From Halobacteriales archaeon (GTDB lineage Archaea > Halobacteriota > Halobacteria > Halobacteriales > Hikarchaeaceae), in assembly GCA_042219475.1 (NCBI GenBank), contig JBDGPX010000007.1, positions 30,433 through 94,432 on the forward strand: a DNA stretch of 64,000 nt. Direction: 5' to 3'. Numbering within the stretch: position 1 is the stretch's first letter; each line of letters starts with the position of its first letter. The notes under the pieces were generated by a model. That model saw only the letters and a list, made by a program, of their open reading frames with translations. It searched no databases and was not told the DNA's origin. Shown one piece after another: positions 4,658 through 40,020 of this stretch. Both the position numbers and the translations under genes were made by a program.

Positions 4658-4686
4658 GTTCCCAGATTCCGAGTGTTCTATTTAAT

Positions 4687-6619: not shown

Positions 6620-6620
6620 A

Positions 6621-7686: not shown

Positions 7687-7862
7687 TTGTGATGCTGACG
7701 CTGCGCTGATCGATCACCTACTGACCGCGACGATCGAAGCGACGAAACCTCCAACAGCGGCGAACTCTCCTGTGAGTTAACCACGCCGGGATATCCCGCT
7801 CCCGTCACCGACTGTCCTGTATCGAATAACATAGCCACAACCCCAACAGCATTCCAGTATCA

Positions 7863-9671: not shown

Positions 9672-9822
9672 GTGGCTTTTCGGCCCGCTGCCCGCTTGTC
9701 ATGGTTCGTTTCCCGCTTTCATTAAGGGGAAGTAACGTCGGTTAACGCGCGTGTATCCCATCTCGGTGGGTGATCGCTGGACGTGAATTTATGTGTCCGA
9801 TCGCTGTGGGTATATAGCATCC

Positions 9823-11907: not shown

Positions 11908-11911
11908 TCCG

Positions 11912-13552
11912 ATGAGCGACATCGACGACATTTCACTCGGTGTGTACCGGGACAAATTGGTGTCGATCTGTGACCAGATGACGAACACGCTGGCCAGAAC
12001 GAGTTTCTCCCCGATCCTCCGAGAGGCCTTTGATCTGAGCGTCGGCATTACGGACAGGGACGGCCGACTCGTTGCCGAGGCGACCAATAGCCTGCCGAAT
12101 TTCACCCGGTTTCTCTCCCAGGCCTCGAAGAATATGATCGACGAGTTCGGCTATGATGGCATCGACGACGGGGATGTCCTGGTGAGCAATGACCCGTGGA
12201 GCGAAACAACCCACCAGTACGATATCGCCATCATCCACCCCGTCTTCTACGACGATGAATTCGTCGGCTTCACGACCGGGATGGGCCATCTATCGGATAT
12301 CGGTGGCAAGCCGTATTCGGCCGAGGCGAAATCGACGTTCGAAGAGGGACTGATCATCCCGCCGATGAAACTGATTCGTGGTGGCGAGCTGAACGATGAC
12401 ATCGTCGATATCATCCGAGCGAACGTGCGGGTCCCCAACGAAGTCATCGGCGACATCAAGTCGTTTCTGGCAGCGACCCATACCGGTCACGAGGAGATCA
12501 TCCGATTCATCGACCAGTACGATATTGACTTCCAGGCGGTGAGTGACGGCATCATCCGGCAATCAACCGCCAACATGCAACACGCGATCGGTGACCTCCC
12601 GGATGGCCGATACGAGGAATCTATTACTGTCGACGGCGTGAATCGAGATATCCGGATCGCGTGTGCGATCACGATCGAGGGTGATCGGCTGGCTGTGGAT
12701 TATGCAGGAACGGATGAGGAGGTCGACACGGCGATCAACGTCCCGAAACTGTACACCGACGCGTACACCCAGTACGCGATCAAATGCGTGACAACGCCCC
12801 AGACACACGAAACCGACGGCGATTTCCAGCCGGTGACGATCGACGCGCCGACGGGTTCGATCCTCAATCCGACGTATCCGGCCGCTATCGCGGGTCGGGC
12901 CTTGATCGGCCATCACTGTGCGGTCATCACAAACCGGGTGTTGTCCCAGATCGCCCCCGACATGACGATGGCCGACCCTGGTATGACGATGACGAGCCAG
13001 ATCAACTTCGAAACCGCTGACGGCGAGCAGCAGTCCGAAATGATGTTCAGTGCCGGCGGAAGCGGGGCCACCGCCCGCAAGGACGGTGCACCGACGCTGT
13101 CACTCCCGACTAATACCGCCTCGATCTCGATCGAGGATCTTGAGTCAAAGACCGGCCGCCTGCTGTTTCTCAGAAAAGCGCTCAGACAGGATTCCGGTGG
13201 TCCCGGCGAAACCCGTGGTGGATTAGGCCAAGAAATCGCGGTCCGGAACCGGTCGGATACGACCATCGACATCAACTTCCTCGGGAGAAAGGGCGCGTTC
13301 CCGGCCAAGGGGATTCAGGGTGGCCACGATGGGACGTGTCAGTCCGTTTATATCGATGATAAACAGGTCCCCGTCAAATCCGATCAACAACTAAAACCGA
13401 ACGAAGTCGTCAGCTATTACGAGGCTGGCGGCGGCGGATTTGGCGATCCAACTGATCGTTCGCCCGAACGGATTCGGAACGATCTCGGTAACGGCTATAT
13501 TTCCGAACAACACGCCCGTGAGGCCTATGATTTCGATCCCGATTCGATGTAG
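11912..13552 (+). CDS. hyuB: hydantoinase B/oxoprolinase family protein, B subunit
   Basis: 546 aa from ATG 11912, 4 nt after the hyuA stop. Hydantoinase_B-like sequence throughout. Confidence 0.85.
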   Translation: MSDIDDISLGVYRDKLVSICDQMTNTLARTSFSPILREAFDLSVGITDRDGRLVAEATNSLPNFTRFLSQASKNMIDEFGYDGIDDGDVLVSNDPWSETTHQYDIAIIHPVFYDDEFVGFTTGMGHLSDIGGKPYSAEAKSTFEEGLIIPPMKLIRGGELNDDIVDIIRANVRVPNEVIGDIKSFLAATHTGHEEIIRFIDQYDIDFQAVSDGIIRQSTANMQHAIGDLPDGRYEESITVDGVNRDIRIACAITIEGDRLAVDYAGTDEEVDTAINVPKLYTDAYTQYAIKCVTTPQTHETDGDFQPVTIDAPTGSILNPTYPAAIAGRALIGHHCAVITNRVLSQIAPDMTMADPGMTMTSQINFETADGEQQSEMMFSAGGSGATARKDGAPTLSLPTNTASISIEDLESKTGRLLFLRKALRQDSGGPGETRGGLGQEIAVRNRSDTTIDINFLGRKGAFPAKGIQGGHDGTCQSVYIDDKQVPVKSDQQLKPNEVVSYYEAGGGGFGDPTDRSPERIRNDLGNGYISEQHAREAYDFDPDSM

Positions 13553-17526: not shown

Positions 17527-17695
17527 CGTCTCACCCGGCTATTCGACCCCCTGGACTAATGAGTGCCACGTTACTCGCAAACGTCGTGTTTGTCCGTGCT
17601 GGTCTACGATCCGCTTTATTGATGTTCCTTGATCGATCGTGATCTCGATCCGGTCAGCCGAAGGCTTTTCTCGGTCTCCGTCGGCGTGGCTCCAT

Positions 17696-18871
17696 ATGGA
17701 CCGGGCGATCGTCGCCGAGAAGACCGAGCAGGCGAGCCGTACTCTCGCGGACCTCGATCTCGATTGCTGGCCGACGTTTTGTCGTGAATCGGACGCCATC
17801 GGTGAACCCTCACTCCCCTTCGTCCTCGGATACGACGTCGTCTGGCCGGCCGCCATCCTGGTGACTGACGTGGGTCGAGCGATCGCGATCCTTGGCGAGA
17901 ACGATGCGGCCCCAGCACGCGAGCTCGACGTGCATGATGTCTACGCTTATCGGGAGTCGCTTGAACCGACACTCATCGAGCAGGTAGCGGCGATCGATCC
18001 CGACTCGATCGCGATCAATTACGCCGAGGACTTCCGCACCGCCGACGGGCTGACCCACGGAATGTACCGTCGATTTCTCGGGCATCTCGGTGGAACCCCC
18101 TATGCGGATCGGCTCGTGAGTGCATCGGATGTGATCCGGCGGGTCCGTGGCCGGAAATCGCCGACCGAGCGCGATCGAATCTATCGGGCCGCCGAAACGA
18201 CCGAGGAACTGTTCGCCGAATTCGCCGAAGCGTGGCACCCTGACTGGACTGACTCAGTCCGCCGACTGGCTTCACGAACGGGTGGCTGATCGCGGTCTCG
18301 ACCTCGCGTGGAGTCCGGATTACTGCCCCGCTGTCGACGCGGGCGGTGCCGCCACGGCCGGCCACACGGTGCCCGGCGATCGAACGCTCCCGCCAGGCGA
18401 GGTCTTGCACTTCGACTTCGGCGTCCGGTACGACGGGTATACTGCCGATCTGCAGCGGTGTTACTACCGTCCCAGCGTGGACGCTCCCGATCCTCCGGAC
18501 GTGTTACAGACAGCGCTTCAGAACGTCCGGGCGGCGATCGAGACGGTCGAACCCGGTCGAACCGGCCGGTCAATCGACGCGGCCGCCCGCGAGACGCTAA
18601 CTGATCGGGGCTGGCCAGAGCCCAATCACGGTATCGGCCACGAGGTCGGCCGTGAGGCTCACGACGGCGGAACGCTCTTCGGACCGCCCTGGGAACCCTA
18701 CGGCGCGTCCGTCGAGGCATCGGTGCATGTGGTGGCATCTACGCCGTCGAGCTCGGCGTCGACACCGAGTATGGATACATCGGTTTCGAGGATATGATCG
18801 GAGTAACTGACAGCGGGGTCGAGTACGTCGTCGAGCCCCAACGATCGCTCCGAATCCTTGAGAATCCTTGA
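17696..18871 (+). pseudogene. M24 family Xaa-Pro peptidase gene disrupted by two frameshifts
   Basis: The reading frame goes 2 -> 3 -> 2. The first shift is at a GACT-GACT 4-nt tandem duplication (18247-18254), the second at about 18732-18737. The joined translation is a continuous M24 protein with canonical motifs (FDFGVRYDGYTADLQR, HGIGHEVG, AVELGV, IGFEDMIGV). Confidence 0.8.
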
Positions 18872-18889: not shown

Positions 18890-19726
18890 TCAGCCGCTGA
18901 GAACCGCTCGGAGGCCAAAGAGGAGATTTTCCTTGCGTTCGAGCAGCCGGCGATAGAAGTATGCGGCCCACTTGTCGCCGTAGGGGACGTACTGCCAGAC
19001 CGGATACTCCGTGGCCAGATCGTACTGGGCGTCTTCCCGAACGCCCATGAGCATCTGGATCTCGAAGTCGGTCCCGTGTTCGGCATAGAGTTCTTCGGCT
19101 CGCTCGATCATCGCCGGATCATGGCTCCCGACTGCGATCCCGCCGTCGTACGCCTCGAAGACGTATTCGAGGAGGCTTTCGTACTCTTCGTCGACCCTGG
19201 ATTTCTCGGTGTAGGCGATCTCCTTGGGTGGATCGTAGGCGCCTTTCACTAACCGGATTTTCCCATCGACGTCCTGCAGCCGCTCGAGGTCTTCACGGCT
19301 CCGTCTCATGTTCGCCTGAATACAGACACCGACGCCATTAGGGTAGTGGGCAGCGGCGTCCTCGAAGGCGTCAAGGGTCGCGTCGATGGTCGTGTGGTCC
19401 TCCATGTCGATCCAGACGAACTGTCCGTTGGCGTTCGCCCGCTCGACGATCCGTTCGAGGTTGTCCACGAACACTGACTCGTCGACATCGAGTCCGATCT
19501 GGGACGGTTTCACCGAGATGCAGGCGTCGATGTCCGCGGTATCGATATCGTCGAGCAATCGGCAGTATGTCTCGGTGTCGGCATCGGCTGGTTCACGGTT
19601 CGAGTAGTGCTCACCCAAGAGATTCAGAATCGCACCGACGTCGTGTTCGTTGAGCTGTCGGGCGTGGTCGATCGCCGTTGCTTCGGTTTCTCCGGCGACG
19701 AACTGGGAGGCGATTGGTGGGATCAT
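18890..19726 (-). CDS. proline dehydrogenase family protein
   Basis: 278 aa. N-terminus MIPPIASQFVAGETEATAIDHARQLNEHDVGAILNLLGEHY is typical of monofunctional archaeal/bacterial ProDH. Confidence 0.8.
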   Translation of the reverse strand: MIPPIASQFVAGETEATAIDHARQLNEHDVGAILNLLGEHYSNREPADADTETYCRLLDDIDTADIDACISVKPSQIGLDVDESVFVDNLERIVERANANGQFVWIDMEDHTTIDATLDAFEDAAAHYPNGVGVCIQANMRRSREDLERLQDVDGKIRLVKGAYDPPKEIAYTEKSRVDEEYESLLEYVFEAYDGGIAVGSHDPAMIERAEELYAEHGTDFEIQMLMGVREDAQYDLATEYPVWQYVPYGDKWAAYFYRRLLERKENLLFGLRAVLSG

Positions 19727-19891: not shown

Positions 19892-20776
19892 TTAGCCGGT
19901 GTATCCCAATGCTTCGGCCGCCCCGAAGTACCGCTCGACGATGATGATCGCGACTAGGACGATCACGATGTTGACCGTCGAGACGGCGGCGATCACCGGA
20001 CTGGCGCCGAAGGTCATCTGCGCGAAGATCCGTACCGGGATCGGGATCACCCCCGGCCCTTGGAGGAAGATCGCGATCTGAAGGTTCGCGTAGCTCACGA
20101 TAAACGAGAAGATGGCCGCCGTGAGCACGCCGGGGAGCAACGCCGGGAAGGTCACATACCGGAACGTCTGGATCTCATCGGCACCGAGATTCATCGCGGC
20201 TTCCTCGATGGAGCGATCGAAGTTGTACATCGTCGTGAGGATACTCCGCGTCGCGTATGGCGTCGCGTACACCGCGAGTGCGAGCGACAGCCCAAGCAGA
20301 TTGCCGACGAGTCCGAAGTTCTTCAGGAACAACAGCAACGCGAGCCCGAGGATGACCTGGGGGATCATCAGTGGCAGGAACGTCCCCGCATCAAGGAGAT
20401 CCCGACCGGCGAAATCGAACCGGCCGATGGCATAGGCTGCCGCCGAGGAGAGGGCGATCGCGATGACGGTCGCCAACAGTGAATACTGGAAGCTGACCAC
20501 GAACGATGAGATCCAGGTCGTTCGCGAGAGGATCTCGGCATACCATTTCAGCGTGATCGATTCCGGCGGGAACGCATAGAGGTCGGATGGGTTGAAGCTG
20601 ATGAGCACCGCGAAGACGACCGGCAACAACAGAAAGACGAACATGCTCACCAGGGTGACGATCCACAGCGCCTGGGCAAGCGAGACGCCACCCAGGGAGT
20701 GATCGAGATTGATCTTTCCGAGTACCCCGGCCAGCCGGAACGGTTTCGACCGACCGATGTCCGATTCGTTGCTCAT
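19892..20776 (-). CDS. ABC transporter permease (PotC-like)
   Basis: 294 aa, multi-TM. 4-nt overlap with the upstream permease gene. Confidence 0.85.
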   Translation of the reverse strand: MSNESDIGRSKPFRLAGVLGKINLDHSLGGVSLAQALWIVTLVSMFVFLLLPVVFAVLISFNPSDLYAFPPESITLKWYAEILSRTTWISSFVVSFQYSLLATVIAIALSSAAAYAIGRFDFAGRDLLDAGTFLPLMIPQVILGLALLLFLKNFGLVGNLLGLSLALAVYATPYATRSILTTMYNFDRSIEEAAMNLGADEIQTFRYVTFPALLPGVLTAAIFSFIVSYANLQIAIFLQGPGVIPIPVRIFAQMTFGASPVIAAVSTVNIVIVLVAIIIVERYFGAAEALGYTG

Positions 20777-21729
20777 AGCATCCCCCCGCTTTCGGTGTAT
20801 TGGAGGTTGACGACTTTCCGATAGATGTAGACGAAGACGATCGAGACGAACAACAGCACGAACGACATCGCGGCCCCGAGCGGCCAGTTCAGGTCAGTCG
20901 TCGCGACACTGTAAATGAACGGCGCGATCATGCCGACCTCCGGCATGCCGATGAACACCGCCGTGGCGAAGGTCCCCATCGTGAGGACAAAGGCGATCAG
21001 CGTCGCGCCGACGACGCCGGGCAACGACAGTGGGAAGGTCACATACATAAACGTCTGCAGGCGATTCCCGCCGAGATTGTACGCGGCCTCGATGATCTCC
21101 TCATCGATCGTATAGAGGACGCTCATCAGGATGAGCACCGCAAAGGGCATCAGGACCGACGAGATCGCGATCACGAGCCCGGGTTTGGTGTTGAGCAACG
21201 TATAGCGCATTCCGAACACCCCGAGGATCTGGTTGATGACGCCGCTGCTCCCCATCAGCGCAAACCAGCCGAACGCACGGACCACGTTCCCCACGAGGAG
21301 GGGCGCAATCACCAGCAGAATGAGCGCTTTCGCGTAGGCCCAGTTCGAGAAGACGATGAAGTACGCCACCGGATAGCTGACGACGATCGTAAACAGCGTC
21401 GAGATGAGGCTGATCTCCACGGTGGTATAGAGCGTATTCATATAGAGGCTTGAGTTGAAGAACCGGATGTAGTTCTCCACCGTCAGCACCGGCTCCATCG
21501 TCGCCGTGGGGACGTTCGTAAAGAAGCTCACCAAGAGCATATATGCGATCGGGATCGCGAAGAAGATCGCCATGTAAAGCAGATACGGCCCCGCCAACAG
21601 ATACGCCGCATAGGGGCGGTCCTTGTGCTTTTGGATAAACACGCGCAGTCGTTCGTGGATGCGGGCGCCGATTGATCCGGTGGGACCGCCAACCGGCTCG
21701 GCAGCCGCTCCGGCGGTCTCGTCGCTCAC
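20773..21729 (-). CDS. ABC transporter permease (PotB-like)
   Basis: 318 aa, multi-TM. 4-nt overlap with the ATPase gene. Confidence 0.85.
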   Translation of the reverse strand: MSDETAGAAAEPVGGPTGSIGARIHERLRVFIQKHKDRPYAAYLLAGPYLLYMAIFFAIPIAYMLLVSFFTNVPTATMEPVLTVENYIRFFNSSLYMNTLYTTVEISLISTLFTIVVSYPVAYFIVFSNWAYAKALILLVIAPLLVGNVVRAFGWFALMGSSGVINQILGVFGMRYTLLNTKPGLVIAISSVLMPFAVLILMSVLYTIDEEIIEAAYNLGGNRLQTFMYVTFPLSLPGVVGATLIAFVLTMGTFATAVFIGMPEVGMIAPFIYSVATTDLNWPLGAAMSFVLLFVSIVFVYIYRKVVNLQYTESGGML

Positions 21730-22841
21730 GCTCGACCACCCGGGATCGCGAACGGGGTATCGGGGCTGAAGCTCAATGTTATCTCGTCGCCCTGTGTGAA
21801 GCCCATCTCCCGTTCGATGTTCTGTTGGACGGCTTGCAGTTCCTGACCGGCGGCAGTAACGAAGTAGTCGACCCGTGAACCGAGATAGGTTGCCTCCCGG
21901 ATCTCGCCCATCATCGTATTTGCCGCGTCGCCATCGTAATCCGGGCCATGGATCGAGAACCGTTCGGGTCGGAACAACAGCGTCACCGCCCGTCCGGTCG
22001 AGAGATCGATGCGGTCAGCTGTCGACTTGTCCAATGTAAAGTGCGGGCCGTCAGGGATTTCCACCGTATACGTTCCATCGCTGATGGCAGTGATTTCGCC
22101 GGTCAAGAGGTTGGCGTTGCCGATAAAATCGGCGACGAACTCGTCGTTTGGCTCCTGATAGACTTCCTCCGGCGTCCCGACCTGGTGGATCTTTCCCTCG
22201 GACATGACCGCCATCCGATCCGAGATCGTCAGCGCCTCTTCCTGGTTGTGTGTCACATAGACCATCGTGACGTCCAGTTCACGGTGTAGACGGAGGATCT
22301 CCAAGCGCATCTCCTCGCGGAGTTTCTTGTCAAGATCCGACAGTGGTTCGTCGAGCAGCATGACCGACGGTTCGATAACCAGCGCCCGTGCGAGCGCGAC
22401 GCGCTGTTGTTGGCCACCCGAAAGCTCCGATGGGTATCGATCGCCGAGTCCCTCGAGACGGACCATCGCGAGGGCATCCTCGACCCGTTCATCGATCTCG
22501 GCGTCAGGCAGGCCTTCCATTTCGAGACCGAAGGCGATATTGTCCGCTACCGTCATGTGGGGAAACAGCGCATAATGCTGGAAGACCATCCCCGTATCAC
22601 GACTATAGGCGGGCGTGTTCGTAACCGACTGCTGGTTGATCAAAACGCTGCCGTCAGTGGGTTTCTCGAACCCAGCGATCATCCGTAACGTCGTCGTCTT
22701 GCCACAGCCTGACGGCCCAAGCAGGGTCAACAATTCGCCCTCGCGGATTTCGAGGTCGATGTCGTCGACTGCGGTGACGTCGCGGAATTGTTTCGTCAGG
22801 TCCTGCAGTTCGACGACTGAGGACGGCTGAGCAGCACACAT
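21726..22841 (-). CDS. ABC transporter ATP-binding protein (PotA-like, with C-terminal regulatory/OB domain)
   Basis: Walker A GPSGCGKTT, signature LSGGQQQRVALARAL, Walker B MLLDEPLS. Confidence 0.9.
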   Translation of the reverse strand: MCAAQPSSVVELQDLTKQFRDVTAVDDIDLEIREGELLTLLGPSGCGKTTTLRMIAGFEKPTDGSVLINQQSVTNTPAYSRDTGMVFQHYALFPHMTVADNIAFGLEMEGLPDAEIDERVEDALAMVRLEGLGDRYPSELSGGQQQRVALARALVIEPSVMLLDEPLSDLDKKLREEMRLEILRLHRELDVTMVYVTHNQEEALTISDRMAVMSEGKIHQVGTPEEVYQEPNDEFVADFIGNANLLTGEITAISDGTYTVEIPDGPHFTLDKSTADRIDLSTGRAVTLLFRPERFSIHGPDYDGDAANTMMGEIREATYLGSRVDYFVTAAGQELQAVQQNIEREMGFTQGDEITLSFSPDTPFAIPGGRA

Positions 22842-22923: not shown

Positions 22924-24012
22924 TCAGCTGTATTTATTGATGATCGTGTTTGCCCGCTCACGCCAGTCGGCCCGCCGCTCGGCGATCCAGTCGAAGTCCG
23001 GTACGTTCAGGTTTTCGAGGTCCTCCGACTGGACGAGTTTGTCCTCGATATCAGATGGGTATTCCGCCGACGGGTTCGGGTTGGTGTAGAACATGTTCTT
23101 CGCGATCACCTTGGCGGCATTGTTCTGCAGCGTCCGGTCGATGAATTTCCCGGCCCACTCGATTTTGTTCTCCGGGATGTTCTTCGGGATCGCGTTGCCG
23201 AAGTTCGTCGTCATCGCACCCTCTTTTGGAATCGTACTCGTCACCGGCTTTCCTTCTGAATTCCACTGGGCGGCCCGGGCCGACCAGTAGCGCCCACCGA
23301 TGACCTCCTCTTGGGCGAAGAGCTTGCCGTATTCCTCACTGGAGGTGACATAGACGGGATTCATCGTCTTGACGACCTCCTCGTACATCGAGAACGCCTT
23401 GTCGACGGCCTTGAACGATTCGCCACCAGTCTGGGCCAACGAGAACGCAAGCACGTCGTGGGTGGGATCCTCCGAGAAGAGACCGACCTTTCCTTTATAA
23501 TCGGTATTGAGATAGATATCTTTCCAGGATTCCGGCTCGGAACTCACCTGATTGGGGTTGTACAACAGGGCGCTGGCGGCGAAAATCTGCAACACCCAGT
23601 CCTCGCCCTTGAAGTTGTCCGGGATATCCGGGTACGTCGGGACGATGTCACCATCGAGATCGAGCCAGAGATCGGAACTCGCCCCGCGTACCAATCCGGC
23701 GCCGTCCTGCTGGGAGACATCAACCGGCGGGTTGTTCTTCTGCGCGATGATCTTGTTGAGTCGTTCGGTGTTGTCACCGAGGACGTACTCGACACTGATG
23801 TCGGTCTCCTCTTCATAGGGCTCGACGACCGCCTTGATCATCAGATCCTGCCAGGTCCCACCCCACGTACCGAGAGTGAGGCTGCTAGGTTTCCCGCCCC
23901 CGCCACCACCGATCCCGCCGGCACAGCCGGCCAGACCGAGCGTCGCCGCGGCACTCCCGAACGCACCGGCACGTTTCAAATACTCTCTCCGAAGCATGCG
24001 TTGCCGTGACAT
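22924..24012 (-). CDS. ABC transporter substrate-binding lipoprotein (PotD/PotF-like) with Tat signal
   Basis: From ATG 24012: MSRQRMLRREYLKRAGAFGSAAATLGLAGCAG, which gives a twin-arginine motif plus a lipobox Cys. Periplasmic-binding-protein-like remainder. Confidence 0.85.
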   Translation of the reverse strand: MSRQRMLRREYLKRAGAFGSAAATLGLAGCAGGIGGGGGGKPSSLTLGTWGGTWQDLMIKAVVEPYEEETDISVEYVLGDNTERLNKIIAQKNNPPVDVSQQDGAGLVRGASSDLWLDLDGDIVPTYPDIPDNFKGEDWVLQIFAASALLYNPNQVSSEPESWKDIYLNTDYKGKVGLFSEDPTHDVLAFSLAQTGGESFKAVDKAFSMYEEVVKTMNPVYVTSSEEYGKLFAQEEVIGGRYWSARAAQWNSEGKPVTSTIPKEGAMTTNFGNAIPKNIPENKIEWAGKFIDRTLQNNAAKVIAKNMFYTNPNPSAEYPSDIEDKLVQSEDLENLNVPDFDWIAERRADWRERANTIINKYS

Positions 24013-24238
24013 GATGCAAATATTGCTTATTGTTATAGCATACTTAATGATACTGTATCTCGAACCGGATGCGGCCATCGCTGGGGAGTCTAATCAGCGA
24101 TATCGTTGGTTACGGCCTCTCATCCGACTTCGTACTCCATTCAGGTGTAGGTCGCGGATGGCATCGATCGGTGTCGTGGATCGGACCGTCGACGATCAAT
24201 CCATGATTTAAGGGCTGTGCTGACGAGATACTGGCGTG

Positions 24239-25429
24239 ATGGAACCCGACAAACTCAGGATTCCGCCATCGGAGCACCGCGAACGAATGGATGCCGTCCT
24301 CGAAGCGGCACAGGACGATGGGTACGATGGTGTCGTCCTCTTTGGCGCCCTGGATATCCACTACGTCAGCGGTATGTATCACCTTCCGACCGAACGCCCC
24401 GTCGTGCTCGGCGTCACGGATGCGGGATCCCAAATCGTCGTGCCCCGGCTCGAACAGGAACACGCCGAACGGGATGATTTCATCATCGACGATGTCCACG
24501 TCTATTTCGATTATCCCCAGGGTGAACCGATGGAACGGGTCGCCGAGATGTGTGCCGAGCTCGGCCTCGATTCCGGACGTGTCGCCGCCGACGCCGATGG
24601 GAGCCCATCCCGGAACGGCTACGAGGGGCCGGCGTTGTCGGAGGTCATCGACGCCGACGTCGGTGTCGAGGACTACATCACCGACATGCGGGAGGTCAAA
24701 AGCGACACCGAAATCGATCTCATTCGCGAAGCGAGTGTTTGGTCGAATCTCGGTCACCGGATGCTTCAAGAGAAGATCGATGTCGGACGGTATCCGGCCG
24801 TGATCAGCGCGGAGGTCGAAGCCGAAGGCACCAAGGCCATGCTCGACACCCTCGGCGATCGGTACGAGATGATGGATTGGTCGAGCCCGATGATGTGCAA
24901 ATTCACGGCCGGGGAGATCACCGCACTCCCCCACAGCGTCGACCAGACGACCCGCATCGAGCCGGGGGACAACATCGTCACGGTCGTCAAGCCGCATGTG
25001 GGCGGGTACACGACCGAGCTCGAACGAACGATGATCGTTGGCGAACCAAGCGCCGAACAACGGGATTATTTCGAGATCATGCAGGAATCCCAGGAGATCG
25101 CGATCGACGCCATCGCGCCCGGTGTCGAGTACGCCTACGTCGAGGAAGCGGTCGTCGACTACTACGAGGAACAGGGCGTCAACAACTACACCCAACACCA
25201 CATCGGTCACAACATCGGTATGGAGGGCCACGAGCGGCCCTTCCTCGACATCGGGTACGATGGTGAACTCCGGCAGGGGGAACTCTACACTGTTGAACCG
25301 GGATTTTACGTCCCGGAGATCGGCGGATTCCGTCACTCCGATACGGTGTTGGTAACCGGCGATGGCACCGAGACGCTGACGTATTACCCGCGTGATCTCG
25401 AGAGCCTGACCATCGATATCGATGCGTGA
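24239..25429 (+). CDS. atypical M24-fold hydrolase (creatinase/prolidase-like), paralog a
   Basis: 396 aa. Retains HHIGHNIGMEGHERP and TVEPG. The canonical ligand positions read V, E and S (GDNIVTVVKPHVGGYTTELERT; GGFRHSD). TTTAAG box about 30 nt upstream of the ATG. Confidence 0.8.
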   Translation: MEPDKLRIPPSEHRERMDAVLEAAQDDGYDGVVLFGALDIHYVSGMYHLPTERPVVLGVTDAGSQIVVPRLEQEHAERDDFIIDDVHVYFDYPQGEPMERVAEMCAELGLDSGRVAADADGSPSRNGYEGPALSEVIDADVGVEDYITDMREVKSDTEIDLIREASVWSNLGHRMLQEKIDVGRYPAVISAEVEAEGTKAMLDTLGDRYEMMDWSSPMMCKFTAGEITALPHSVDQTTRIEPGDNIVTVVKPHVGGYTTELERTMIVGEPSAEQRDYFEIMQESQEIAIDAIAPGVEYAYVEEAVVDYYEEQGVNNYTQHHIGHNIGMEGHERPFLDIGYDGELRQGELYTVEPGFYVPEIGGFRHSDTVLVTGDGTETLTYYPRDLESLTIDIDA

Positions 25430-26582
25430 ACTCGCCCCCTCTCCGGCCGATCGGTTCGTCGATCCCGACCGCTTCGATCGAATCCGAACGGCCCTGACGG
25501 AGAGCAATCTCGATGGGTTGGTCGGCCTCTCGCCGGCGAACTCGTATTACCTCACCGGCGTCTACGCCGGGATGTACTCCCGACCGGTCGTCGGCGTCGT
25601 CACCGATCGGACGAGCGCGTTCGGCGGTCCCCGACTCGAAGCCCGCAAGGCCGAACGGACCGGATGGGTCGATCGGGCAGTCGTCTACGAGGACGCTGAC
25701 GATCCGTTCGACGTATTGGCCAGTATTATCCCCGACAATGTCGACCGGATCGGGTACGATCAGGCCTACGCCCGTCCCGGCTGGATCGACGAACTCGACG
25801 CTCGACTCGATGTCGCGTTCGTCGATGCGACCGATACCTTCCTCGACTGTCGGATGATCAAAACCGAGTGGGAACTCGAGATGATGCGTCGGACCGCCGA
25901 CCTGGCGGGGGCGGGCATCGAGGCCTACACCGATGCTGTGGCTGCTGGCCGACCGGAACTCGACGTGGTGGATGCCATTCAGGATGCGTTTTATGAGACT
26001 TACCTCGACCAGCATCCGGAATACGACATCGGCACGGCCAACGAACTGGGCCAATACGGCTTCGCGAGCGTGCTGTCGGGCGGTCACGCCCTCGAACCCC
26101 ACAGCATTTCCTCGGCCAAACCGATCGAGGACGGCGAGACCGTCGTCGGCATTGCGCTTCCATCACTGCAGGGCTACGTCTGTGAGGAGGAACGGACCGT
26201 GTTGGTCGGCGATGTTGACGCCGATATCGTCGAAGCGATGGAGACGCTCGTCCGGGTGCGCCGGGAGACAATGGATCTCCTCGAGGCCGGACGGGGGACC
26301 GACGAGATCGATGACTGGACCGCGACCGAGCTTCGAGACGCCGGCTACGGCGAGCATATCATCCACCGTACTGGCCATGGCGAGGGGATCACGATCCACG
26401 AGGGTCCGGCGTTGAACGCCCGGGAATCCGGCCAGCTCGAACCCGGCATGGTGATCAGTGTCGAACCGGGGCTGTACTTCCCCGACCGTGACGTTGCCCT
26501 GCGACATTCGGATACGTTCATCATCACCGACACCGGGGCCGAACGGCTCACACACACCGACGACGGCGTCCGTCGCGCCTGA
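25422..26582 (+). CDS. atypical M24-fold hydrolase (creatinase/prolidase-like), paralog b
   Basis: 386 aa. The start overlaps the paralog-a stop by 8 nt (ATGCGTGA). Same substitution pattern (GETVVGIALPSLQGYVCEEERT; ALRHSD), with HRTGHGEG and SVEPG retained. Confidence 0.8.
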   Translation: MRELAPSPADRFVDPDRFDRIRTALTESNLDGLVGLSPANSYYLTGVYAGMYSRPVVGVVTDRTSAFGGPRLEARKAERTGWVDRAVVYEDADDPFDVLASIIPDNVDRIGYDQAYARPGWIDELDARLDVAFVDATDTFLDCRMIKTEWELEMMRRTADLAGAGIEAYTDAVAAGRPELDVVDAIQDAFYETYLDQHPEYDIGTANELGQYGFASVLSGGHALEPHSISSAKPIEDGETVVGIALPSLQGYVCEEERTVLVGDVDADIVEAMETLVRVRRETMDLLEAGRGTDEIDDWTATELRDAGYGEHIIHRTGHGEGITIHEGPALNARESGQLEPGMVISVEPGLYFPDRDVALRHSDTFIITDTGAERLTHTDDGVRRA

Positions 26583-26587
26583 CACCC

Positions 26588-27772
26588 ATGGCCACGTTCG
26601 ATCTCCTCTTACACGGCGATTGCTGGGATGCCGATCGGGGTCGACGATCGGATCGCTGGCTGGCGATCGACGACGGCGTTATCGCCGGCTGTTTTCGCGA
26701 GAAACCCGGTGACGCTGCCCTCGAACGGTCGGTTTCGCTCATCACTCCCGGGCTGATCGACATGCACGTCCATCTCGTCTGGGATGGCAGTGCGGATCCG
26801 GTCGCGACGCTCCGGTCGGAATCCGAACAGGCCCTGCTGATCCGCGCGTTGGAGAACGGCCGTACCCAACTTCGTCACGGCGTCACGACGGTCCGTGATG
26901 TCGGCAGTGTCGCCGATATCGCTATTACTGTTGCGACGGCGATCCGACGGGACCGACTGTTCGGGCCGCGGACGTTCGCCAGCGGCCGAACCGTGATCAT
27001 CACCGCCGGTCACGATCCGTTCTGGGGGATCATGAGCGACGGTCCCGATGCCTGCCGGCAGGCGGTGCGGGAGCTACGGGGCGCTGGCGCCGACCTGATC
27101 AAGGTCTCGGCGACCGGCGGCGTCTACGGTCAGGCCATCGGCGAGGAGCCCGGGGCGACCGAATTAACGCGGGCCGAACTCGAAGCGGTCGTCGACGAGG
27201 CGGCCCGGTTTGATCTCCCCGTTGCGGCCCATGCTGTCGGCCAGGACGGAATCGAGAACGCGGTCGCCGTCGGCGTGGATACGATCGAACACGGCAACCT
27301 CATGGCCGACAGGACGCTCGACCGGCTGATCGACGCCGATATCGCCTATGACCCAACGCTATACGTCTATCGGGAGATCGCTCACTCCGATACGGCGCCG
27401 GCCTACGCCCGGGCGAACGCCCAAGCGGTATTCGAACGACATTGGGAAGTCGCCCGGCGCGCGATCGCCGAAGACGCCCGGATTATCGCCGGGAGCGATG
27501 CGGGCTCCCCGGGTACCCCGCATCCAAGTCTCCACCGCGAACTGACCTGTTTAGTCGAGGCTGGTATGGACGAGACGGCCGCGTTGACAGCGGCGACACA
27601 GACGCCGGCGGCCGAACTCGGCCGTCCCAAACTGGGCACGCTTGAGACAGGAACGCCGGCGGATGTCCTCGGGTTCGATGACGATCCCCTCGTCGACATC
27701 GGTGTCACCGCCTCACCGACGGTCGTGGTCCGGGACGGCGACCCCGCGTTCTATCCTGATCTGCCGGTGTGA
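26588..27772 (+). CDS. amidohydrolase superfamily protein (imidazolonepropionase/prolidase-like branch)
   Basis: 394 aa. PGLIDMHVHLVWDG metal motif, KVSATGGV, AAHAVG, IEHG, AGSDAG. Starts 5 nt after the M24b stop. Confidence 0.8.
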   Translation: MATFDLLLHGDCWDADRGRRSDRWLAIDDGVIAGCFREKPGDAALERSVSLITPGLIDMHVHLVWDGSADPVATLRSESEQALLIRALENGRTQLRHGVTTVRDVGSVADIAITVATAIRRDRLFGPRTFASGRTVIITAGHDPFWGIMSDGPDACRQAVRELRGAGADLIKVSATGGVYGQAIGEEPGATELTRAELEAVVDEAARFDLPVAAHAVGQDGIENAVAVGVDTIEHGNLMADRTLDRLIDADIAYDPTLYVYREIAHSDTAPAYARANAQAVFERHWEVARRAIAEDARIIAGSDAGSPGTPHPSLHRELTCLVEAGMDETAALTAATQTPAAELGRPKLGTLETGTPADVLGFDDDPLVDIGVTASPTVVVRDGDPAFYPDLPV

Positions 27773-27817: not shown

Positions 27818-28930
27818 TCAGAGGATCCGGAGCTCCCGGGGGAATCCCGTGAGCACCTCGGCCCCCTCCTCCGTAAGAACGACGTCGTCCTCGATCCGTA
27901 CGCCGCCGAACTCCTCGACATAGACGCCCGGTTCGACGGTAAACGCGTTGCCGATCACCAGGGGTGTCTCGTTCCCCTCGACCAGATACGGTGGTTCGTG
28001 ACCTTCGAGTCCGAGACCATGGCCGAGTCGGTGGGTGAAGTACTCCCCGTAGCCGGCCTCTTCGATGACCTCGCGAGCGGCACGATCAAGCGCCTGGAGT
28101 TCGACGCCTTCTTCGACAGCTTCCCGTCCTGCTCGGGCGCCCTCCCGGACGACCTCGTAGATCTCGCGGAATTCCTCGTCAGGCTCGCCGACGTTGAACG
28201 TGCGGGTGATGTCGGAATAATACCCCTTACAGACGACGCCTGCGTCGATCATCAGCGGATCCCCATCCTCGATCTCACGCTCGCCGGTGTTGGTGTGTGG
28301 TTTCGCCGTGTTCGGCCCACTCGTCACGATGAGTACACCCAATTCATCGGCCCGACTGTCGATCGCTCGCTTCTCGATATCGCGGGCGACATCACGCTCG
28401 GTCATCCCCGGTTCGACGGTTTCGATAGTCGCCGCCAGGATGTCGTCAATGATCGATGCGGCCTCCCGCATGTGCTCGATCTCCTGATCGTCCTTGCGGG
28501 CCCGCAATGAAGCGATCGCGTCCTCGGCATCGACGATTTCTCCCCACTCGAAGGCGTCGGCGATCAGTTCGTACTCAAGCAGGCGGGTCGAGCGGTATTC
28601 CATACCGACCCGACCGGTGATGGTACGGTCTACCTGGAGTTCCTCGAACGCGTCGCGGGCAGCTTCAAGTGGATCAGTCGCGTCCGTATAGATGAAAAAT
28701 TCGGTAGCCTCTCCGAGGGCATCCCGCACTCGGCTCGTCTCGAGGGCCGGTAACACGACTGCCGGTGGCTGGTCTCGCTGTAAGACCAGCACGGTCGGCC
28801 GTTCACTCTGATGCATCTCCAGTCCGGTGAAGTACCGCATCGTCCGGCTCGGCGGAATCATCACCGCCTCGATCGCACTATCGAGTGTTTCGAACAGCCG
28901 TTCGCGTCGGTCTGCATGGATCTCGGCCAT
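27818..28930 (-). CDS. pepQ: Xaa-Pro dipeptidase/aminopeptidase (canonical M24B, PepQ-like)
   Basis: All five canonical ligand motifs are present: GDPLMIDAGVVCKGYYSDITRT, HRLGHGLGLEGHEPP, FTVEPGVY, GGVRIEDDV. ATG 28930 preferred over the upstream start at 28975. Confidence 0.85.
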   Translation of the reverse strand: MAEIHADRRERLFETLDSAIEAVMIPPSRTMRYFTGLEMHQSERPTVLVLQRDQPPAVVLPALETSRVRDALGEATEFFIYTDATDPLEAARDAFEELQVDRTITGRVGMEYRSTRLLEYELIADAFEWGEIVDAEDAIASLRARKDDQEIEHMREAASIIDDILAATIETVEPGMTERDVARDIEKRAIDSRADELGVLIVTSGPNTAKPHTNTGEREIEDGDPLMIDAGVVCKGYYSDITRTFNVGEPDEEFREIYEVVREGARAGREAVEEGVELQALDRAAREVIEEAGYGEYFTHRLGHGLGLEGHEPPYLVEGNETPLVIGNAFTVEPGVYVEEFGGVRIEDDVVLTEEGAEVLTGFPRELRIL

Positions 28931-28974
28931 CGTCTGAGAATCCGCTATTCGGCACCTAAACCTTTCCACTCTCA

Positions 28975-29030
28975 CGGTCGGCGAGCGGCGTCGTTATCGG
29001 TCCGAGCGAGTACCGGATTCATTCACTTCG
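28975..29030 (+). repeat. partial copy of the GC-rich repeat family (B2/C-type module)
   Basis: GGCGAGCGGCGT...CCGAGCGAGTA...ATTCACT parallels GAGCGAGCGCGT...CGAGCGAGTA...AGTTCACT at 37737-37780. Confidence 0.4.
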
Positions 29031-37720: not shown

Positions 37721-37780
37721 TCGACCCTGCCTCAAGGAGCGAGCGCGTTAGCACGAGCGAGTAGGCAGGGGTAGTTCACT
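37691..37780. repeat. composite palindrome (repeat copy C) spanning the 3' ends of convergent trmO and thrC; likely bidirectional terminator
   Basis: Outer IR AGTGAACT (37691-37698) / AGTTCACT (37773-37780). Inner perfect stem CCCTGCCT (37725-37732) / AGGCAGGG (37763-37770). The loop matches module B2 (AGCGAGCGCGT.AG..CGAGC). Confidence 0.6.
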
Positions 37781-38891
37781 CGCTTTTGAGGCCGCTCCCG
37801 GTGAGCGGGACGACGACGTCGGCGTCGGTCGCGAGGATATCCCGATCCCGATACACCTCGAGCGCCGCCGGTGCGGCAGCACACGTCGGTTCCGTGTAAT
37901 ACCCGTTACTGTGGAGTCGATCGAGAGCGTCCTCGACGGCCGGTTCGCTGACTGCGATCGCATCACCGTCAGTCGTCTCGATCGCCGCGATGATCTGCTC
38001 CTGTCGGGCGGGTTCGCGAATCTGGATCCCGTCGGCGACATCGTTCGTACCCGCCGCCGCCTTTTCCCCGTGGAGGGCGGCGACGATCGGCGCGTAGCCC
38101 GCCGCTTGAGCACCGAGCATTCGGGGGAGTCGGTCGATCCAGCCCGCCTCTTTGAGCGCACGGAACCCACGGTAGGCACCCAAAAAGAGCGTCCCGTGAC
38201 CGAGCGGGCTGACGACGGCCTCCGGCGGTTCCCACTCCCGTTGGGCACACACCTCCATGGCGAAGGTACTCGTCCCGGCGAAGAAGGCCGGATTCCAGGC
38301 GTGACTGGCGTACCAGGTACCGCCGGTTTCGACCCGATCGATACAGGCGTCGGTGACGTCCTCCCGGGATCCTTCGATCCGGATCGGCTCGGCACCCGTC
38401 CGCTCGATCGCTCGAAGCTTTGCCTGTTTGACCCCTGCGGGGACGTAAATCTCGGCTGGAATATCGGCGACCGCGGCATACTGGGCGATGGCCGCCCCGG
38501 CGTTGCCCGAGGAGTCATCAACGATCCGGTCGACGCCCAACTGGGCAGCGCGTGAGAGTAGTGCTGTCGCCCCACGGTCCTTGAAGCTCCCCGAGGGGAA
38601 CACCCATTCCAGTTTGAACTGCGCAGTCCAGTCATCGGCGGAGACCAGCGGCGTAAAGCCCTCGCCAAGGGTCACCCGCGGCGAGATTGGGAGGAAGTCC
38701 GCAAACGCCCAGAGCCCACCCCGTGTATCGAGCGCTGTCGGATCGGGTGCGGGTCCGTCCGGGATGGGTGTCTCGATGAAGTCAAGCGGCCCGCCACAGG
38801 TACACCGCCAAGGTTCGTCCGGTCCACTGTCGTACTCGGTGCCACAGACGCTACAGCGGAGGCCCGTCATACCGCTTCGTTGGCCGGGCAT
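37776..38891 (-). CDS. thrC: threonine synthase (PLP, with N-terminal zinc ribbon)
   Basis: 371 aa. CSVCG...CTCGG N-terminus and PLP-lysine motif PSGSFKDRGA. Confidence 0.75.
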   Translation of the reverse strand: MPGQRSGMTGLRCSVCGTEYDSGPDEPWRCTCGGPLDFIETPIPDGPAPDPTALDTRGGLWAFADFLPISPRVTLGEGFTPLVSADDWTAQFKLEWVFPSGSFKDRGATALLSRAAQLGVDRIVDDSSGNAGAAIAQYAAVADIPAEIYVPAGVKQAKLRAIERTGAEPIRIEGSREDVTDACIDRVETGGTWYASHAWNPAFFAGTSTFAMEVCAQREWEPPEAVVSPLGHGTLFLGAYRGFRALKEAGWIDRLPRMLGAQAAGYAPIVAALHGEKAAAGTNDVADGIQIREPARQEQIIAAIETTDGDAIAVSEPAVEDALDRLHSNGYYTEPTCAAAPAALEVYRDRDILATDADVVVPLTGSGLKSE

Positions 38892-38901
38892 CGGGGTAGC
38901 T

Positions 38902-38925
38902 GTGTCGGTGTCAGTGTCAGTGTCA
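38902..38925. repeat. tandem hexanucleotide repeat (GTGTCR x4)
   Basis: GTGTCG GTGTCA GTGTCA GTGTCA in the 47-nt spacer between the AstE-family gene stop and the thrC start. Confidence 0.8.
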
Positions 38926-38938
38926 GTATTTCCTCGCT

Positions 38939-39895
38939 TCAGTACTCGTCGATATCGGTTGCGACCGAGCAGACGTACTCGCCGGTCGCGACTTGAGGGA
39001 GTCGTCGCGACCGCCAGAAGATCCCGCCTTCCTTGGCGGTGACTTCGGCTTTATTCCTGCCGAAGACATCGGTCACCTCGAAGAGTACGTCGCCGCGTTG
39101 GACGCGGTCACCGAGGTCGAACCGGTAGTTGATCAGCCCGCCTGTCGGGGAATTGTGACGTTCGAATCCCTTTGCTCGGGTTTGCGTGGCGGGCTCGACG
39201 TCACCGTCGAGAAAGTCGTAGTACTCCAGCACGTTCATCACCCCCTCGAGGCCGTACTGGATCGATTCCTCATCCCAGCCAACCGCCCCGCCGAGTTCCG
39301 GGTCGATCGTGGGAATGTCCTCATCCGGCGCAGCCCGTGCGAGCTGGCCGTCGGGGCCCTTTTGATCGAGTACGTAACCACAGTCGAACACCTTCGCGAG
39401 TTCGAGACAGTCGTCGTGGAGCCGGTGGTGTCGGCCACAGCGGACCCGTGTCTCGTTGACCATGCGGCTTGTCGAACCCTGGTGGAGGTCAAGAATGTAA
39501 TCCGCCCGGGCCGCCGCCTGGAAGGTCGCATGGGCGATCCGTTCGCTCGAAGTTCCGGACGGCTCGCCCGGGTAGGCTCGATTCATCTTCGTGTTGTCGA
39601 TCGGGTTGCGATGCTCGGCGATCTGGAAGGCGTGGTAGTTGACGATACCGACGATCAGGATCGTCCCGGCGAGTGTGTCGGGATCGAGGCGTGGGACGAG
39701 CCGTTGGACGACCCCGAGCCCGTTGAGTTCATCCCCGTCGCTGACGGCTTGGATGTACAGCGTCGGGCCGTCCTGTTTCCCCTCGATTACCGCCACCGGT
39801 AGTCCAAACGGGGACCCGTCCCGCGTCTCTCCGACATCCAGGCGACCGGTGTCGATCTCGCCCGGATCGGCGTTCGCCGTCCCGAGTGTCGTCAT
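38939..39895 (-). CDS. succinylglutamate desuccinylase/aspartoacylase family (M14-like) deacylase
   Basis: 318 aa from ATG 39895. The N-terminal region TLYIQAVSDGDELNG sits at the family zinc-site position, and the layout is family-typical. Confidence 0.7.
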   Translation of the reverse strand: MTTLGTANADPGEIDTGRLDVGETRDGSPFGLPVAVIEGKQDGPTLYIQAVSDGDELNGLGVVQRLVPRLDPDTLAGTILIVGIVNYHAFQIAEHRNPIDNTKMNRAYPGEPSGTSSERIAHATFQAAARADYILDLHQGSTSRMVNETRVRCGRHHRLHDDCLELAKVFDCGYVLDQKGPDGQLARAAPDEDIPTIDPELGGAVGWDEESIQYGLEGVMNVLEYYDFLDGDVEPATQTRAKGFERHNSPTGGLINYRFDLGDRVQRGDVLFEVTDVFGRNKAEVTAKEGGIFWRSRRLPQVATGEYVCSVATDIDEY

Positions 39896-40020
39896 TAATG
39901 CGAACCGACACATCCAGCGTATTGGGTCTATCGGGTTTCGTCTCCGTTTCCGCCACCACCGACGCTGCGTACAGGCGTTGGATCGATGCCACTTTGCCGG
40001 CACCACTCGTATCGAAACCC

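What the first reader, a model, noticed from the sequence alone, without database searches (positions are those of the whole stretch)
24239..26582. Two translationally coupled M24 paralogs with three of five canonical metal-ligand positions substituted the same way
Seen by aligning the four M24 copies in this window around the ligand motifs. PepQ reads GDPLMIDAGVVCKGYYSDITRT ... EPGVY ... GGVRIEDD. The decayed copy reads GEVLHFDFGVRYDGYTADLQR ... IGFEDM. M24a reads GDNIVTVVKPHVGGYTTELERT ... EPGFY ... GGFRHSD. M24b reads GETVVGIALPSLQGYVCEEERT ... EPGLY ... ALRHSD. In both M24a and M24b the first Asp is lost (Val/Ile), the second Asp is Glu, and the last Glu is Ser within a shared R-H-S-D motif. 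The His (GH.G) and the EPG Glu are retained. The two genes overlap by 8 nt (ATGCGTGA), which is typical of translational coupling and of subunits made in fixed stoichiometry. Established knowledge: the pita-bread M24 fold has been recruited for non-peptidase chemistry, namely creatinase (metal independent) and ectoine hydrolase DoeA/EutD. Inference: M24a and M24b may form a heteromeric hydrolase that lacks the usual dinuclear metal centre and acts on a non-peptide amide or amidine.
Basis: partly seen in the sequence, partly recalled or inferred. Interest (0 to 1): 0.65.

Follow-up and report, generated by a model that had tools for sequence, protein, structure and literature searches.

The report
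Two variant M24 hydrolases, not subunits
Two neighbouring peptidase-like genes do share an unusual active site, but it is the hallmark of a large, unstudied enzyme subfamily that each gene inherited separately, and the two genes also occur apart, so they are probably separate enzymes in one nutrient-uptake operon and not two halves of one enzyme.

Summary
M24a (24239-25429) and M24b (25422-26582) overlap by 8 nt (ATGCGTGA). At the five canonical metal-ligand positions they read V/E/H/E/S and I/E/H/E/S, against D/D/H/E/E in the neighbouring PepQ.

- **The pattern is inherited, not pair-specific.** It marks a large, deep M24B clade found in haloarchaea, Bacillota, Asgard archaea, Chloroflexota and others. 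M24a and M24b (26% identical) sit on its two deepest branches.
- **The site is remodelled, not just decayed.** The clade also gains a Glu (D-I-T-R-T becomes E-x-E-R-T) and a His (R-I-E-D becomes R-H-S-D). The gained Glu aligns with creatinase Glu262 (A-L-E-R-T).
- **The two genes occur apart.** M24a orthologs occur without M24b. M24b orthologs occur without M24a, once inside the same transporter/amidohydrolase/PepQ cassette. In Haladaptatus the 8-nt overlap recurs between M24b and the amidohydrolase, so it reflects operon compaction.

An obligate heteromer is therefore unlikely. The most likely reading is two self-sufficient hydrolases in a mobile catabolic cassette for a small imported nitrogen compound. 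Substrate and metal content remain unknown. No family member has a solved structure or a specific name.

The parts
24239..25429 (+). M24a: variant M24B hydrolase. Ligand positions are V249/E260/H324/E353/S367. It also carries the gained E262 (ELERT) and H366 (RHSD).
   Evidence: ORF. Pfam PF01321 + PF00557. Alignments to 1pv9 and 1wy2. AF2 pLDDT 95. Orthologs at 60-92% identity in haloarchaea.
25422..26582 (+). M24b: a second variant M24B hydrolase, with pattern I/E/H/E/S and motifs EEERT and RHSD. It is 26% identical to M24a, and its start overlaps the M24a stop by 8 nt.
   Evidence: It is 100% identical to P0269, from a Halobacteriales MAG. AF2 pLDDT 93. The N-terminus M-R-E is conserved in orthologs.
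26588..27772 (+). Amidohydrolase-superfamily enzyme of the Cc2672/ochratoxinase 'carboxypeptidase / N-acyl-amino-acid hydrolase' type. It is co-oriented with M24b and starts 5 nt after it.
   Evidence: Pfam Amidohydro_1. NF051886 at 209 bits, below the cutoff of 500. PDB neighbours are 2qs8, 3mtw (Cc2672 L-Arg carboxypeptidase), 8ihq and 3be7. It is syntenic in L001, L091 and L095.
27818..28975 (-). Canonical prolidase-type PepQ (D/D/H/E/E), convergent with the M24a-M24b-amidohydrolase operon.
   Evidence: Pfam M24 at 217 bits. Alignment. Conserved in the cassette in L001, L091 and L095.
22924..24078 (-). PotD/MotA-like substrate-binding protein, divergent from M24a. The likely true start is the internal Met before the RREYLK twin-arginine motif and the LAGC lipobox.
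   Evidence: SBP_bac_8. PDB neighbours are 3pu5, 5l9s (mannopine MotA) and PotD. Translation.
19892..22841 (-). PotA-like ATPase (21726-22841) and two permeases (20773-21729, 19892-20776) of the same ABC importer.
   Evidence: Syntenic in L001, L091 and L095.
18890..19726 (-). Proline dehydrogenase next to the transporter. This adjacency is specific to this window among the haloarchaeal cassettes.
   Evidence: Pfam Pro_dh. NF045947 at 200 bits. Absent from L001, L091 and L095. Present near Bacillota family members L064 and L074.
24079..24238 (.). Divergent intergenic region. It contains an A/T-rich ATTTAAG about 30 nt upstream of the M24a ATG, which may be an archaeal TATA box for a leaderless transcript.
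   Evidence: Read directly from the sequence. Not tested further.

Best explanation
M24a and M24b are two anciently diverged, individually functional members of a large uncharacterised M24B ('pita-bread') subfamily.

**The remodelled site**
- The first ligand Asp is lost and replaced by a variable residue.
- D-I-T-R-T becomes E-x-E-R-T.
- R-I/L-E-D becomes R-H-S-D.
- The ligand His and the EPG Glu are kept.

**The operon (shown)**
The two genes are co-transcribed with an amidohydrolase-superfamily carboxypeptidase-type enzyme. They face a PotABCD-type importer and sit beside a canonical prolidase. Together these form a mobile, often megaplasmid-borne catabolic cassette.

**Mechanism (inferred)**
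- Each enzyme acts on its own, probably as a homodimer like other two-domain M24B enzymes.
- Each cleaves a C-N bond in a small imported nitrogen compound. A proline-containing or cationic peptide-like substrate is the most likely.
- The active-site pocket is rich in acidic residues (E260/E262/E353 with H324). It holds either a single metal ion or the substrate's cationic group.
- The 8-nt overlap simply couples translation within a compact operon.
For: **Pattern and register**
-.

**Clade-wide signature**
- About 200 of 230 full-length relatives read x-E-H-E-S.
- The extended signature HxEEHHERHSD dominates the 167 sequences aligned.
- Variants separate from canonical sequences in an NJ tree, and M24a and M24b fall on the two deepest branches (91 vs 66 leaves).

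**Wide distribution, mostly single genes**
- 595 confirmed loci in species-representative genomes.
- Only 2 of the best 80 carry the a/b pair.

**Independence of the two genes**
- M24a alone: L002, L004, L081, L096.
- M24b alone: L085, L086, L093, L094.
- The same cassette without M24a: L091.
- Symporter + a + b: L003.
- The associated symporters are 75-79% identical to each other, while the M24s beside them are about 28% identical.

**Overlap is not pair-specific**
- The M24b/amidohydrolase junction also overlaps by 8 nt in L095.

**Cassette conservation**
- L001, L095 and L091.

**Peptide or proline context**
- Canonical PepQ is present in the cassettes.
- In Bacillota, the family member follows a Dpp-type transporter in L064, with ProDH upstream and M55 and M20 peptidases downstream. 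In L067 it sits with a PotD-type transporter and a canonical M24.

**Conservation**
- All motif residues are invariant or nearly so in both branches.
- Both AF2 models are confident.
Against: - No biochemical data exist for any family member. All database names are generic, and no structure is solved.
- Where the pair exists, the junction is tightly conserved (8, 8, 8 and -1 nt). At least 13 metagenomic contigs appear to carry both genes, judged from matching contig lengths. A facultative hetero-oligomer therefore cannot be excluded.
- The substrate guess is weak. PotD-type and PutP-type transporters are not typical peptide importers, ProDH adjacency is not conserved in the haloarchaeal cassettes, and the creatinase-like Glu262 equivalent points towards non-peptide chemistry.
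- The tree is a simple NJ tree on sequences selected by similarity to the queries.
Confidence: 0.6

Rival explanations
1. M24a and M24b form a dedicated heteromeric hydrolase made in fixed stoichiometry by translational coupling. It has two non-equivalent active sites at the dimer interface.
For: - The 8-nt overlap is conserved in the window, L003 and L095.
- The pair recurs in several haloarchaeal genera and in many metagenomic contigs (matching contig lengths).
- From established knowledge, two-domain M24B enzymes are dimers whose N-terminal domain approaches the partner's active site.
Against: - Each gene occurs without the other, including M24b inside the otherwise identical cassette (L091).
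- Named genomes carrying M24a orthologs (Natronococcus occultus, Natrialba, Halopiger and others) do not appear among the M24b orthologs, and the reverse holds for Halorussus salinisoli.
- The same 8-nt overlap joins M24b to the unrelated amidohydrolase.
- Most family members are single genes.
Confidence: 0.12
2. Both are metal-independent, creatinase-like amidino- or amide-hydrolases acting on a non-peptide cationic solute, such as a guanidino or amidino compound or a compatible-solute derivative. Each acts on its own. E262 and E353 grip the cationic group and H232 acts as the catalytic base.
For: - Alignment with the verified P. putida creatinase sequence puts creatinase His232, Glu262, His324 and Glu358 on M24a H232, E262, H324 and E353 (ALERT vs ELERT).
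- Creatinases give the highest query-normalised TM-scores (0.85-0.86) to the M24a model.
- The linked transporters are of small-molecule types: PotD/MotA-like ABC and PutP-like SSF.
- The adjacent amidohydrolase is nearest to L-Arg/Lys carboxypeptidase-type enzymes.
Against: - Sequence similarity is highest to true prolidases (1pv9 at 218 bits vs creatinase at 174 bits with the family profile).
- E260 and S367/H366 differ from creatinase A260 and H376/E375.
- A cluster of three carboxylates and a His is more typical of a metal site.
- No urea, sarcosine or diaminobutyrate pathway genes lie in the cassette.
- Family members sit in peptide-type operons in Bacillota.
Confidence: 0.25
3. One or both proteins are catalytically dead pseudo-enzymes, acting as binding or regulatory proteins like PA2G4/Ebp1 or the Spt16 N-terminal domain. 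The ligand losses would then be decay.
For: Two of the five canonical ligands are replaced by residues that cannot chelate in the usual way. A truly decayed M24 copy lies 6 kb away.
Against: - The replacement residues, including the gained Glu and His, are near-invariant across two domains of life. That is the opposite of decay.
- The genes sit consistently in transporter-linked catabolic operons.
Confidence: 0.03

Closest known systems
Small two-domain archaeal/bacterial prolidases (Pyrococcus furiosus and P. horikoshii prolidase, 1PV9/1WY2; Lactococcus lactis prolidase, 7N02)
   Same: Best sequence matches, at E 1e-32 to 1e-35 for single sequences and 218 bits with the family profile. They share the Creatinase_N + pita-bread architecture. 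The PH His, the GH ligand His, the HE His, the EPG Glu and the N-domain RP motif are all conserved. Foldseek gives its best E-values for them.
   Different: The first Asp and the last Glu ligands are missing, and the second Asp is Glu. An extra Glu (i+2) and an extra His are present. Scores are far below the PepQ equivalog cutoff (131 and 125 bits vs 630). M24a is about 45 residues longer.
Creatinase (creatine amidinohydrolase, P. putida, 1CHM)
   Same: Same length class and fold, with TMq 0.86. It also lacks the dinuclear ligand set while keeping His324 and Glu358. It shares the x-L-E-R-T motif, so creatinase Glu262 aligns with E262, and His232 is aligned.
   Different: Identity is only about 21%. 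Creatinase has N249/A260/H376 where M24a has V249/E260/S367, and R-E-H-D where M24a has R-H-S-D. There are no sarcosine or urea genes in the cassette. The roles of creatinase residues are recalled from the literature and were not tested here.
Ectoine hydrolase DoeA/EutD (6TWK; S. meliloti EutD)
   Same: A non-peptidase M24B enzyme of similar size, found in a transporter-linked catabolic operon, with TMq about 0.8.
   Different: The five positions read E/P/Y/M/T, and there is no ExERT or RHSD motif. TIGR02993 scores are 43-46 bits against a cutoff of 613. No adjacent DoeB-type deacetylase is present.
Monometalated methionine aminopeptidase (established knowledge: MetAP is active with only the tight His/Glu site filled)
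   Same: The positions kept in M24a and M24b (second acidic ligand, His, EPG Glu) correspond to the tight M1 site. The lost first Asp belongs only to the loose M2 site.
   Different: The bridging last Glu is also lost (Ser), and a new Glu is added, so the geometry cannot be the same. Metal content was not tested.

Membership tests
Peptidase family M24 / pita-bread fold (Pfam PF00557 with PF01321 N-domain) | Significant match to both Pfam models, and the two-domain fold. | tested here: met
   M24a scores 132.7 and 42.4 bits, and M24b 120.9 and 64.3 bits, all above the cutoffs. The AF2 models match prolidase and creatinase structures at TM 0.74-0.89.
Canonical dinuclear M24B peptidases (prolidase / aminopeptidase P) | Five metal ligands Asp, Asp, His, Glu, Glu. 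| tested here: not met
   M24a reads V/E/H/E/S and M24b reads I/E/H/E/S.
Canonical dinuclear M24B peptidases (prolidase / aminopeptidase P) | Score above a curated equivalog cutoff (archaeal PepQ NF040821, PepP NF008131, YpdF-type NF007310). | tested here: not met
   Best scores are 131 and 125 bits against a cutoff of 630. All other models are also far below cutoff.
Canonical dinuclear M24B peptidases (prolidase / aminopeptidase P) | Co/Mn-dependent Xaa-Pro hydrolysis. | not testable with these tools
   Needs an enzyme assay and metal analysis.
Creatinase | Active-site set His232, Glu262, Glu358 (with His324) in the absence of the dinuclear ligands. | tested here: met
   H232, E262, H324 and E353 align to these residues of 1CHM.
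Creatinase | The remaining creatinase-specific residues (N249, A260, R-E-H-D with H376) and close sequence relationship. | tested here: not met
   M24a has V249, E260 and R-H-S-D. Identity is about 21%. Prolidases score higher than creatinase.
Ectoine hydrolase DoeA/EutD | Match to TIGR02993 or NF038259 above cutoff, the EutD active-site pattern, and a neighbouring DoeB/EutE. | tested here: not met
   Scores are 43-78 bits against cutoffs of 575 and 613. EutD reads E/P/Y/M/T. The cassette has no AstE/AspA-family gene.
Obligate two-subunit (heteromeric) enzyme | The two genes always co-occur, and neither is found functioning alone. | tested here: not met
   Solitary M24a: L002, L004, L081, L096. 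Solitary M24b: L085, L086, L091, L092, L093, L094.
Obligate two-subunit (heteromeric) enzyme | Physical a/b complex. | not testable with these tools
   No multimer prediction or pull-down was available.
Variant 'ExERT / RHSD' M24B clade (defined here) | x at ligand 1, E-x-E-R-T, the GH His, the EPG Glu and R-H-S-D. | tested here: met
   Both proteins carry the full signature, HVEEHHERHSD and HIEEHHERHSD. Both fall inside the variant clade.

The most novel reading that the evidence does not exclude
The ExERT/RHSD clade is a third catalytic type of pita-bread enzyme, alongside dinuclear peptidases and metal-free creatinase/DoeA. Its centre is remodelled: either a single metal held by Glu/His/Glu with a creatinase-like second Glu, or no metal at all. 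Its substrate class is new, a small cationic or imino-acid solute imported by dedicated PotD-, PutP- or Dpp-type transporters. It is widespread in halophilic archaea, Bacillota, Asgard archaea and Chloroflexota. M24a and M24b would be two specificities of this chemistry combined in one cassette.
Probability: 0.3. Interest if true: 0.7.

Novelty: new variant of a known kind. Interest (0 to 1): 0.45.

Why it matters
Hundreds of genomes annotate these proteins as 'Xaa-Pro peptidase' or 'M24 metallopeptidase', although they lack two of the five ligands that define that chemistry and carry two conserved replacements instead. Working out what the remodelled site does would have three uses:

- It would correct a widespread annotation.
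- It could add a new reaction or metal stoichiometry to a textbook fold.
- It would identify the nutrient, possibly a proline- or arginine-related peptide or solute, that haloarchaea and halophilic Bacillota import through the linked transporters.

For this window specifically, the result removes an attractive but unsupported heteromer hypothesis.

Tried and rejected
- **Literature.** Five searches for a characterised M24 with this ligand pattern, or for a heteromeric M24, found nothing relevant. The P. horikoshii 'putative dipeptidase' paper turned out to describe a canonical D/D/H/E/E enzyme.
- **EutD structure paper.** It is not held in the library. I recovered S. meliloti EutD from pSymB instead.
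- **Solved structures.** A search of the PDB with a family profile found only canonical prolidases, creatinase and DoeA.
- **Metagenome scan with M24b.** It returned only two loci, though one of them (L091) was decisive.
- **AFDB fold search.** The library was unavailable.
- **Heteromer prediction.** A multimer or fused-chain prediction was not possible with the tools.
- **Agrobacterium Ti-plasmid M24.** It lies next to a PotD-type transporter and looked like a possible analogue, but it carries a different degenerate pattern (L/C/R/E/G) and is not in this clade.
- **Tandem pair in L069.** This is a recent duplication (75% identity) with one copy mutated at the ligand His. It is not comparable with the a/b pair.
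- **Proline dehydrogenase as a conserved partner.** Its adjacency is specific to this window among the haloarchaeal cassettes.
- **Cluster names.** Names for ten bacterial representatives were all generic.
Full report
**What is in the window**

The region lies in a haloarchaeal genome fragment with about 60% G+C and acidic proteins. M24b is 100% identical to a protein from a Halobacteriales MAG. The genes are:

| Coordinates | Strand | Gene |
|---|---|---|
| ~17.7-18.87 kb | + | frameshifted canonical-type M24 pseudogene |
| 18890-19726 | - | proline dehydrogenase |
| 19892-20776, 20773-21729 | - | two ABC permeases |
| 21726-22841 | - | PotA-like ATPase |
| 22924-24078 | - | PotD/MotA-like binding protein |
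| 24239-25429 | + | M24a |
| 25422-26582 | + | M24b |
| 26588-27772 | + | amidohydrolase-superfamily enzyme |
| 27818-28975 | - | canonical PepQ |

M24a and the binding protein are divergently transcribed.

**Checking the observation**

- The 8-nt overlap ATGCGTGA is present.
- phmmer alignments of M24a to P. furiosus and P. horikoshii prolidases, and of M24b to L. lactis prolidase, fix the motif register with high posterior probability.
- M24a reads V249/E260/H324/E353/S367. M24b reads I/E/H/E/S. The window's PepQ reads D/D/H/E/E. MAFFT alignments agree.
- The two proteins are only 26% identical.

**The pattern is a clade signature, not a property of the pair**

- A full HMMER scan of 1.84 billion representatives, together with the word-indexed search, returned relatives of which about 200 of 230 full-length sequences read x-E-H-E-S.
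- Extending the comparison shows four linked changes. Ligand 1 is lost and becomes variable (G, I, S, V and others). D-I-T-R-T becomes E-x-E-R-T. R-I/L-E-D becomes R-H-S-D.
- The clade therefore gains a Glu two residues after the second ligand, and a His before the Ser. Both are near-invariant in the M24a-like and M24b-like alignments. This is remodelling under selection, not decay.
- In an NJ tree the variants separate from canonical sequences, and M24a and M24b fall on the two deepest variant branches, 91 and 66 leaves. The tree is approximate and the sampling is biased towards the queries.
- The clade is found in Halobacteria, Bacillota, Asgard and Bathyarchaeota MAGs, Chloroflexota, Acetothermia, Actinomycetota and Deinococcus plasmids.
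- All database names are generic. No member has a solved structure.

**Relation to known non-peptidase pita-bread enzymes**

- I verified a P. putida creatinase sequence as 100% identical to 1CHM and aligned it.
- Creatinase His232, Glu262, His324 and Glu358 fall on M24a H232, E262, H324 and E353. Creatinase A-L-E-R-T aligns with E-L-E-R-T.
- Creatinase N249, A260 and H376 fall on V249, E260 and S367.
- Creatinases also give the highest query-normalised TM-scores to the AF2 model of M24a (0.85-0.86). Small prolidases give the best E-values.
- S. meliloti EutD, recovered from pSymB next to EutE, reads E/P/Y/M/T and lacks both motifs. DoeA/EutD is therefore not a close analogue.
- The variant clade thus sits between prolidase and creatinase at the active site.
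- From established knowledge of MetAP and prolidase, the lost first Asp ligates only the loose M2 metal, while the second acidic ligand, the His and the EPG Glu make the tight M1 site. A single-metal centre is therefore plausible, and so is a metal-free site that binds a cation. The sequence cannot decide between them.

**Testing the heteromer idea**

| Gene arrangement | Loci |
|---|---|
| ABC importer + M24a + M24b + amidohydrolase + PepQ | window, L001 (Haloprofundus), L095 (Haladaptatus plasmid) |
| ABC importer + M24b + amidohydrolase + PepQ, no M24a | L091 |
| PutP-like symporter + M24a + M24b | L003 (Halalkalicoccus) |
| Symporter + M24a only | L002, L004, L081-83, L096 |
| Symporter + M24b only | L085, L086 |
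| M24b isolated | L093, L094 |

- The symporters beside solitary M24a and solitary M24b are 75-79% identical to each other. The M24s beside them are about 28% identical.
- Named genomes in the M24a ortholog list largely do not recur in the M24b ortholog list, and the reverse also holds.
- Where the pair exists, the junction is tight: an 8-nt overlap in three loci and a 1-nt gap in the fourth.
- In Haladaptatus the M24b/amidohydrolase junction has the same 8-nt overlap.
- Of the best 80 genome loci for the family, only two have the a/b pair.

Together this shows that each enzyme is self-sufficient. The two are functionally linked, sharing the same transporters and probably related substrates, but they are not obligate subunits. 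A facultative heterodimer cannot be excluded.

**What the cassette probably does**

- The amidohydrolase is nearest to the Cc2672 L-Arg/Lys carboxypeptidase and ochratoxinase group.
- The binding protein is nearest to PotD, mannopine MotA and GABA-type binders.
- PepQ is a canonical prolidase. A proline dehydrogenase lies next to the transporter in this window only.
- In Bacillota, family members follow Dpp-type importers in at least 11 of 80 loci. Some loci also carry ProDH, M55 and M20 peptidases. One Bacillota locus repeats the combination of a PotD-type importer with a canonical M24.
- The best-supported reading is a catabolic cassette for a small imported peptide-like or cationic nitrogen compound, with proline among the products.
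- The substrate identity is inference only. A non-peptide amidine or amide substrate remains a live alternative because of the creatinase-like Glu.

**Verdict**

The feature is a new variant of a known kind. Its interest lies in the uncharacterised ExERT/RHSD clade, not in the pairing.

Noticed in passing
window 17690-18870 (+): The 'decayed' M24 copy is a full-length canonical-type (D/D/H/E/E-like) M24 gene broken by two frameshifts (frame 0, then 1, then 0). It has an intact-looking N-domain and the C-terminal IGFEDM motif. It is either a pseudogene or an assembly error in the MAG.
   Followed up: partly
window 37776-40006 (-): Adjacent PALP (threonine-dehydratase-like) and AstE/AspA-family (succinylglutamate desuccinylase/aspartoacylase) genes. 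These are the same families as EutB and EutE/DoeB of ectoine catabolism. They lie about 11 kb from the M24 pair, and no link has been shown.
   Followed up: no
L081, L002, L096, L085, L086, L003 (symporter upstream of the M24 gene): One subfamily of PutP-like sodium:solute symporters (469-480 aa, 66-96% identical to each other) is divergently paired with M24a, with M24b or with both, often alongside an HTH_10 regulator. The symporters group by which M24 they accompany and not by host taxonomy, which suggests mobile two-gene cassettes.
   Followed up: partly
P0090 (Natrinema zhouii plasmid), P0121: A sub-branch next to M24a carries yet another pattern, F/Y-K-H-E-C (a Lys at the second ligand position and R-H-C-D). 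It is a variant of the variant.
   Followed up: no
L098 (Agrobacterium Ti plasmid NZ_CP048467.1, locus 1906-13328): A PotD-type ABC importer, a degenerate M24 protein (L/C/R/E/G at the ligand positions), an SDR and a SIS-domain protein lie beside the T-DNA genes ipt and rolB. This may be an opine-catabolic non-peptidase M24. It is unrelated to the ExERT/RHSD clade.
   Followed up: partly
L069 644-3038: A tandem pair of ExERT/RHSD genes in a Pseudoneobacillus MAG. They are 75% identical, and the second copy has the ligand His replaced by Leu (HHTGLAIG).
   Followed up: partly
window 24206-24212 and 22924-24078: ATTTAAG lies about 30 nt upstream of the M24a ATG, which may be a TATA box for a leaderless mRNA. 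The binding-protein ORF probably starts at an internal Met, just before a twin-arginine signal (RREYLK) and a lipobox (LAGC).
   Followed up: no
L095 (Haladaptatus pallidirubidus plasmid), L096 (Halostagnicola plasmid): The cassette and the symporter-M24a module sit on haloarchaeal megaplasmids of about 570 kb, near transposases and toxin-antitoxin genes. This is consistent with horizontal mobility.
   Followed up: no
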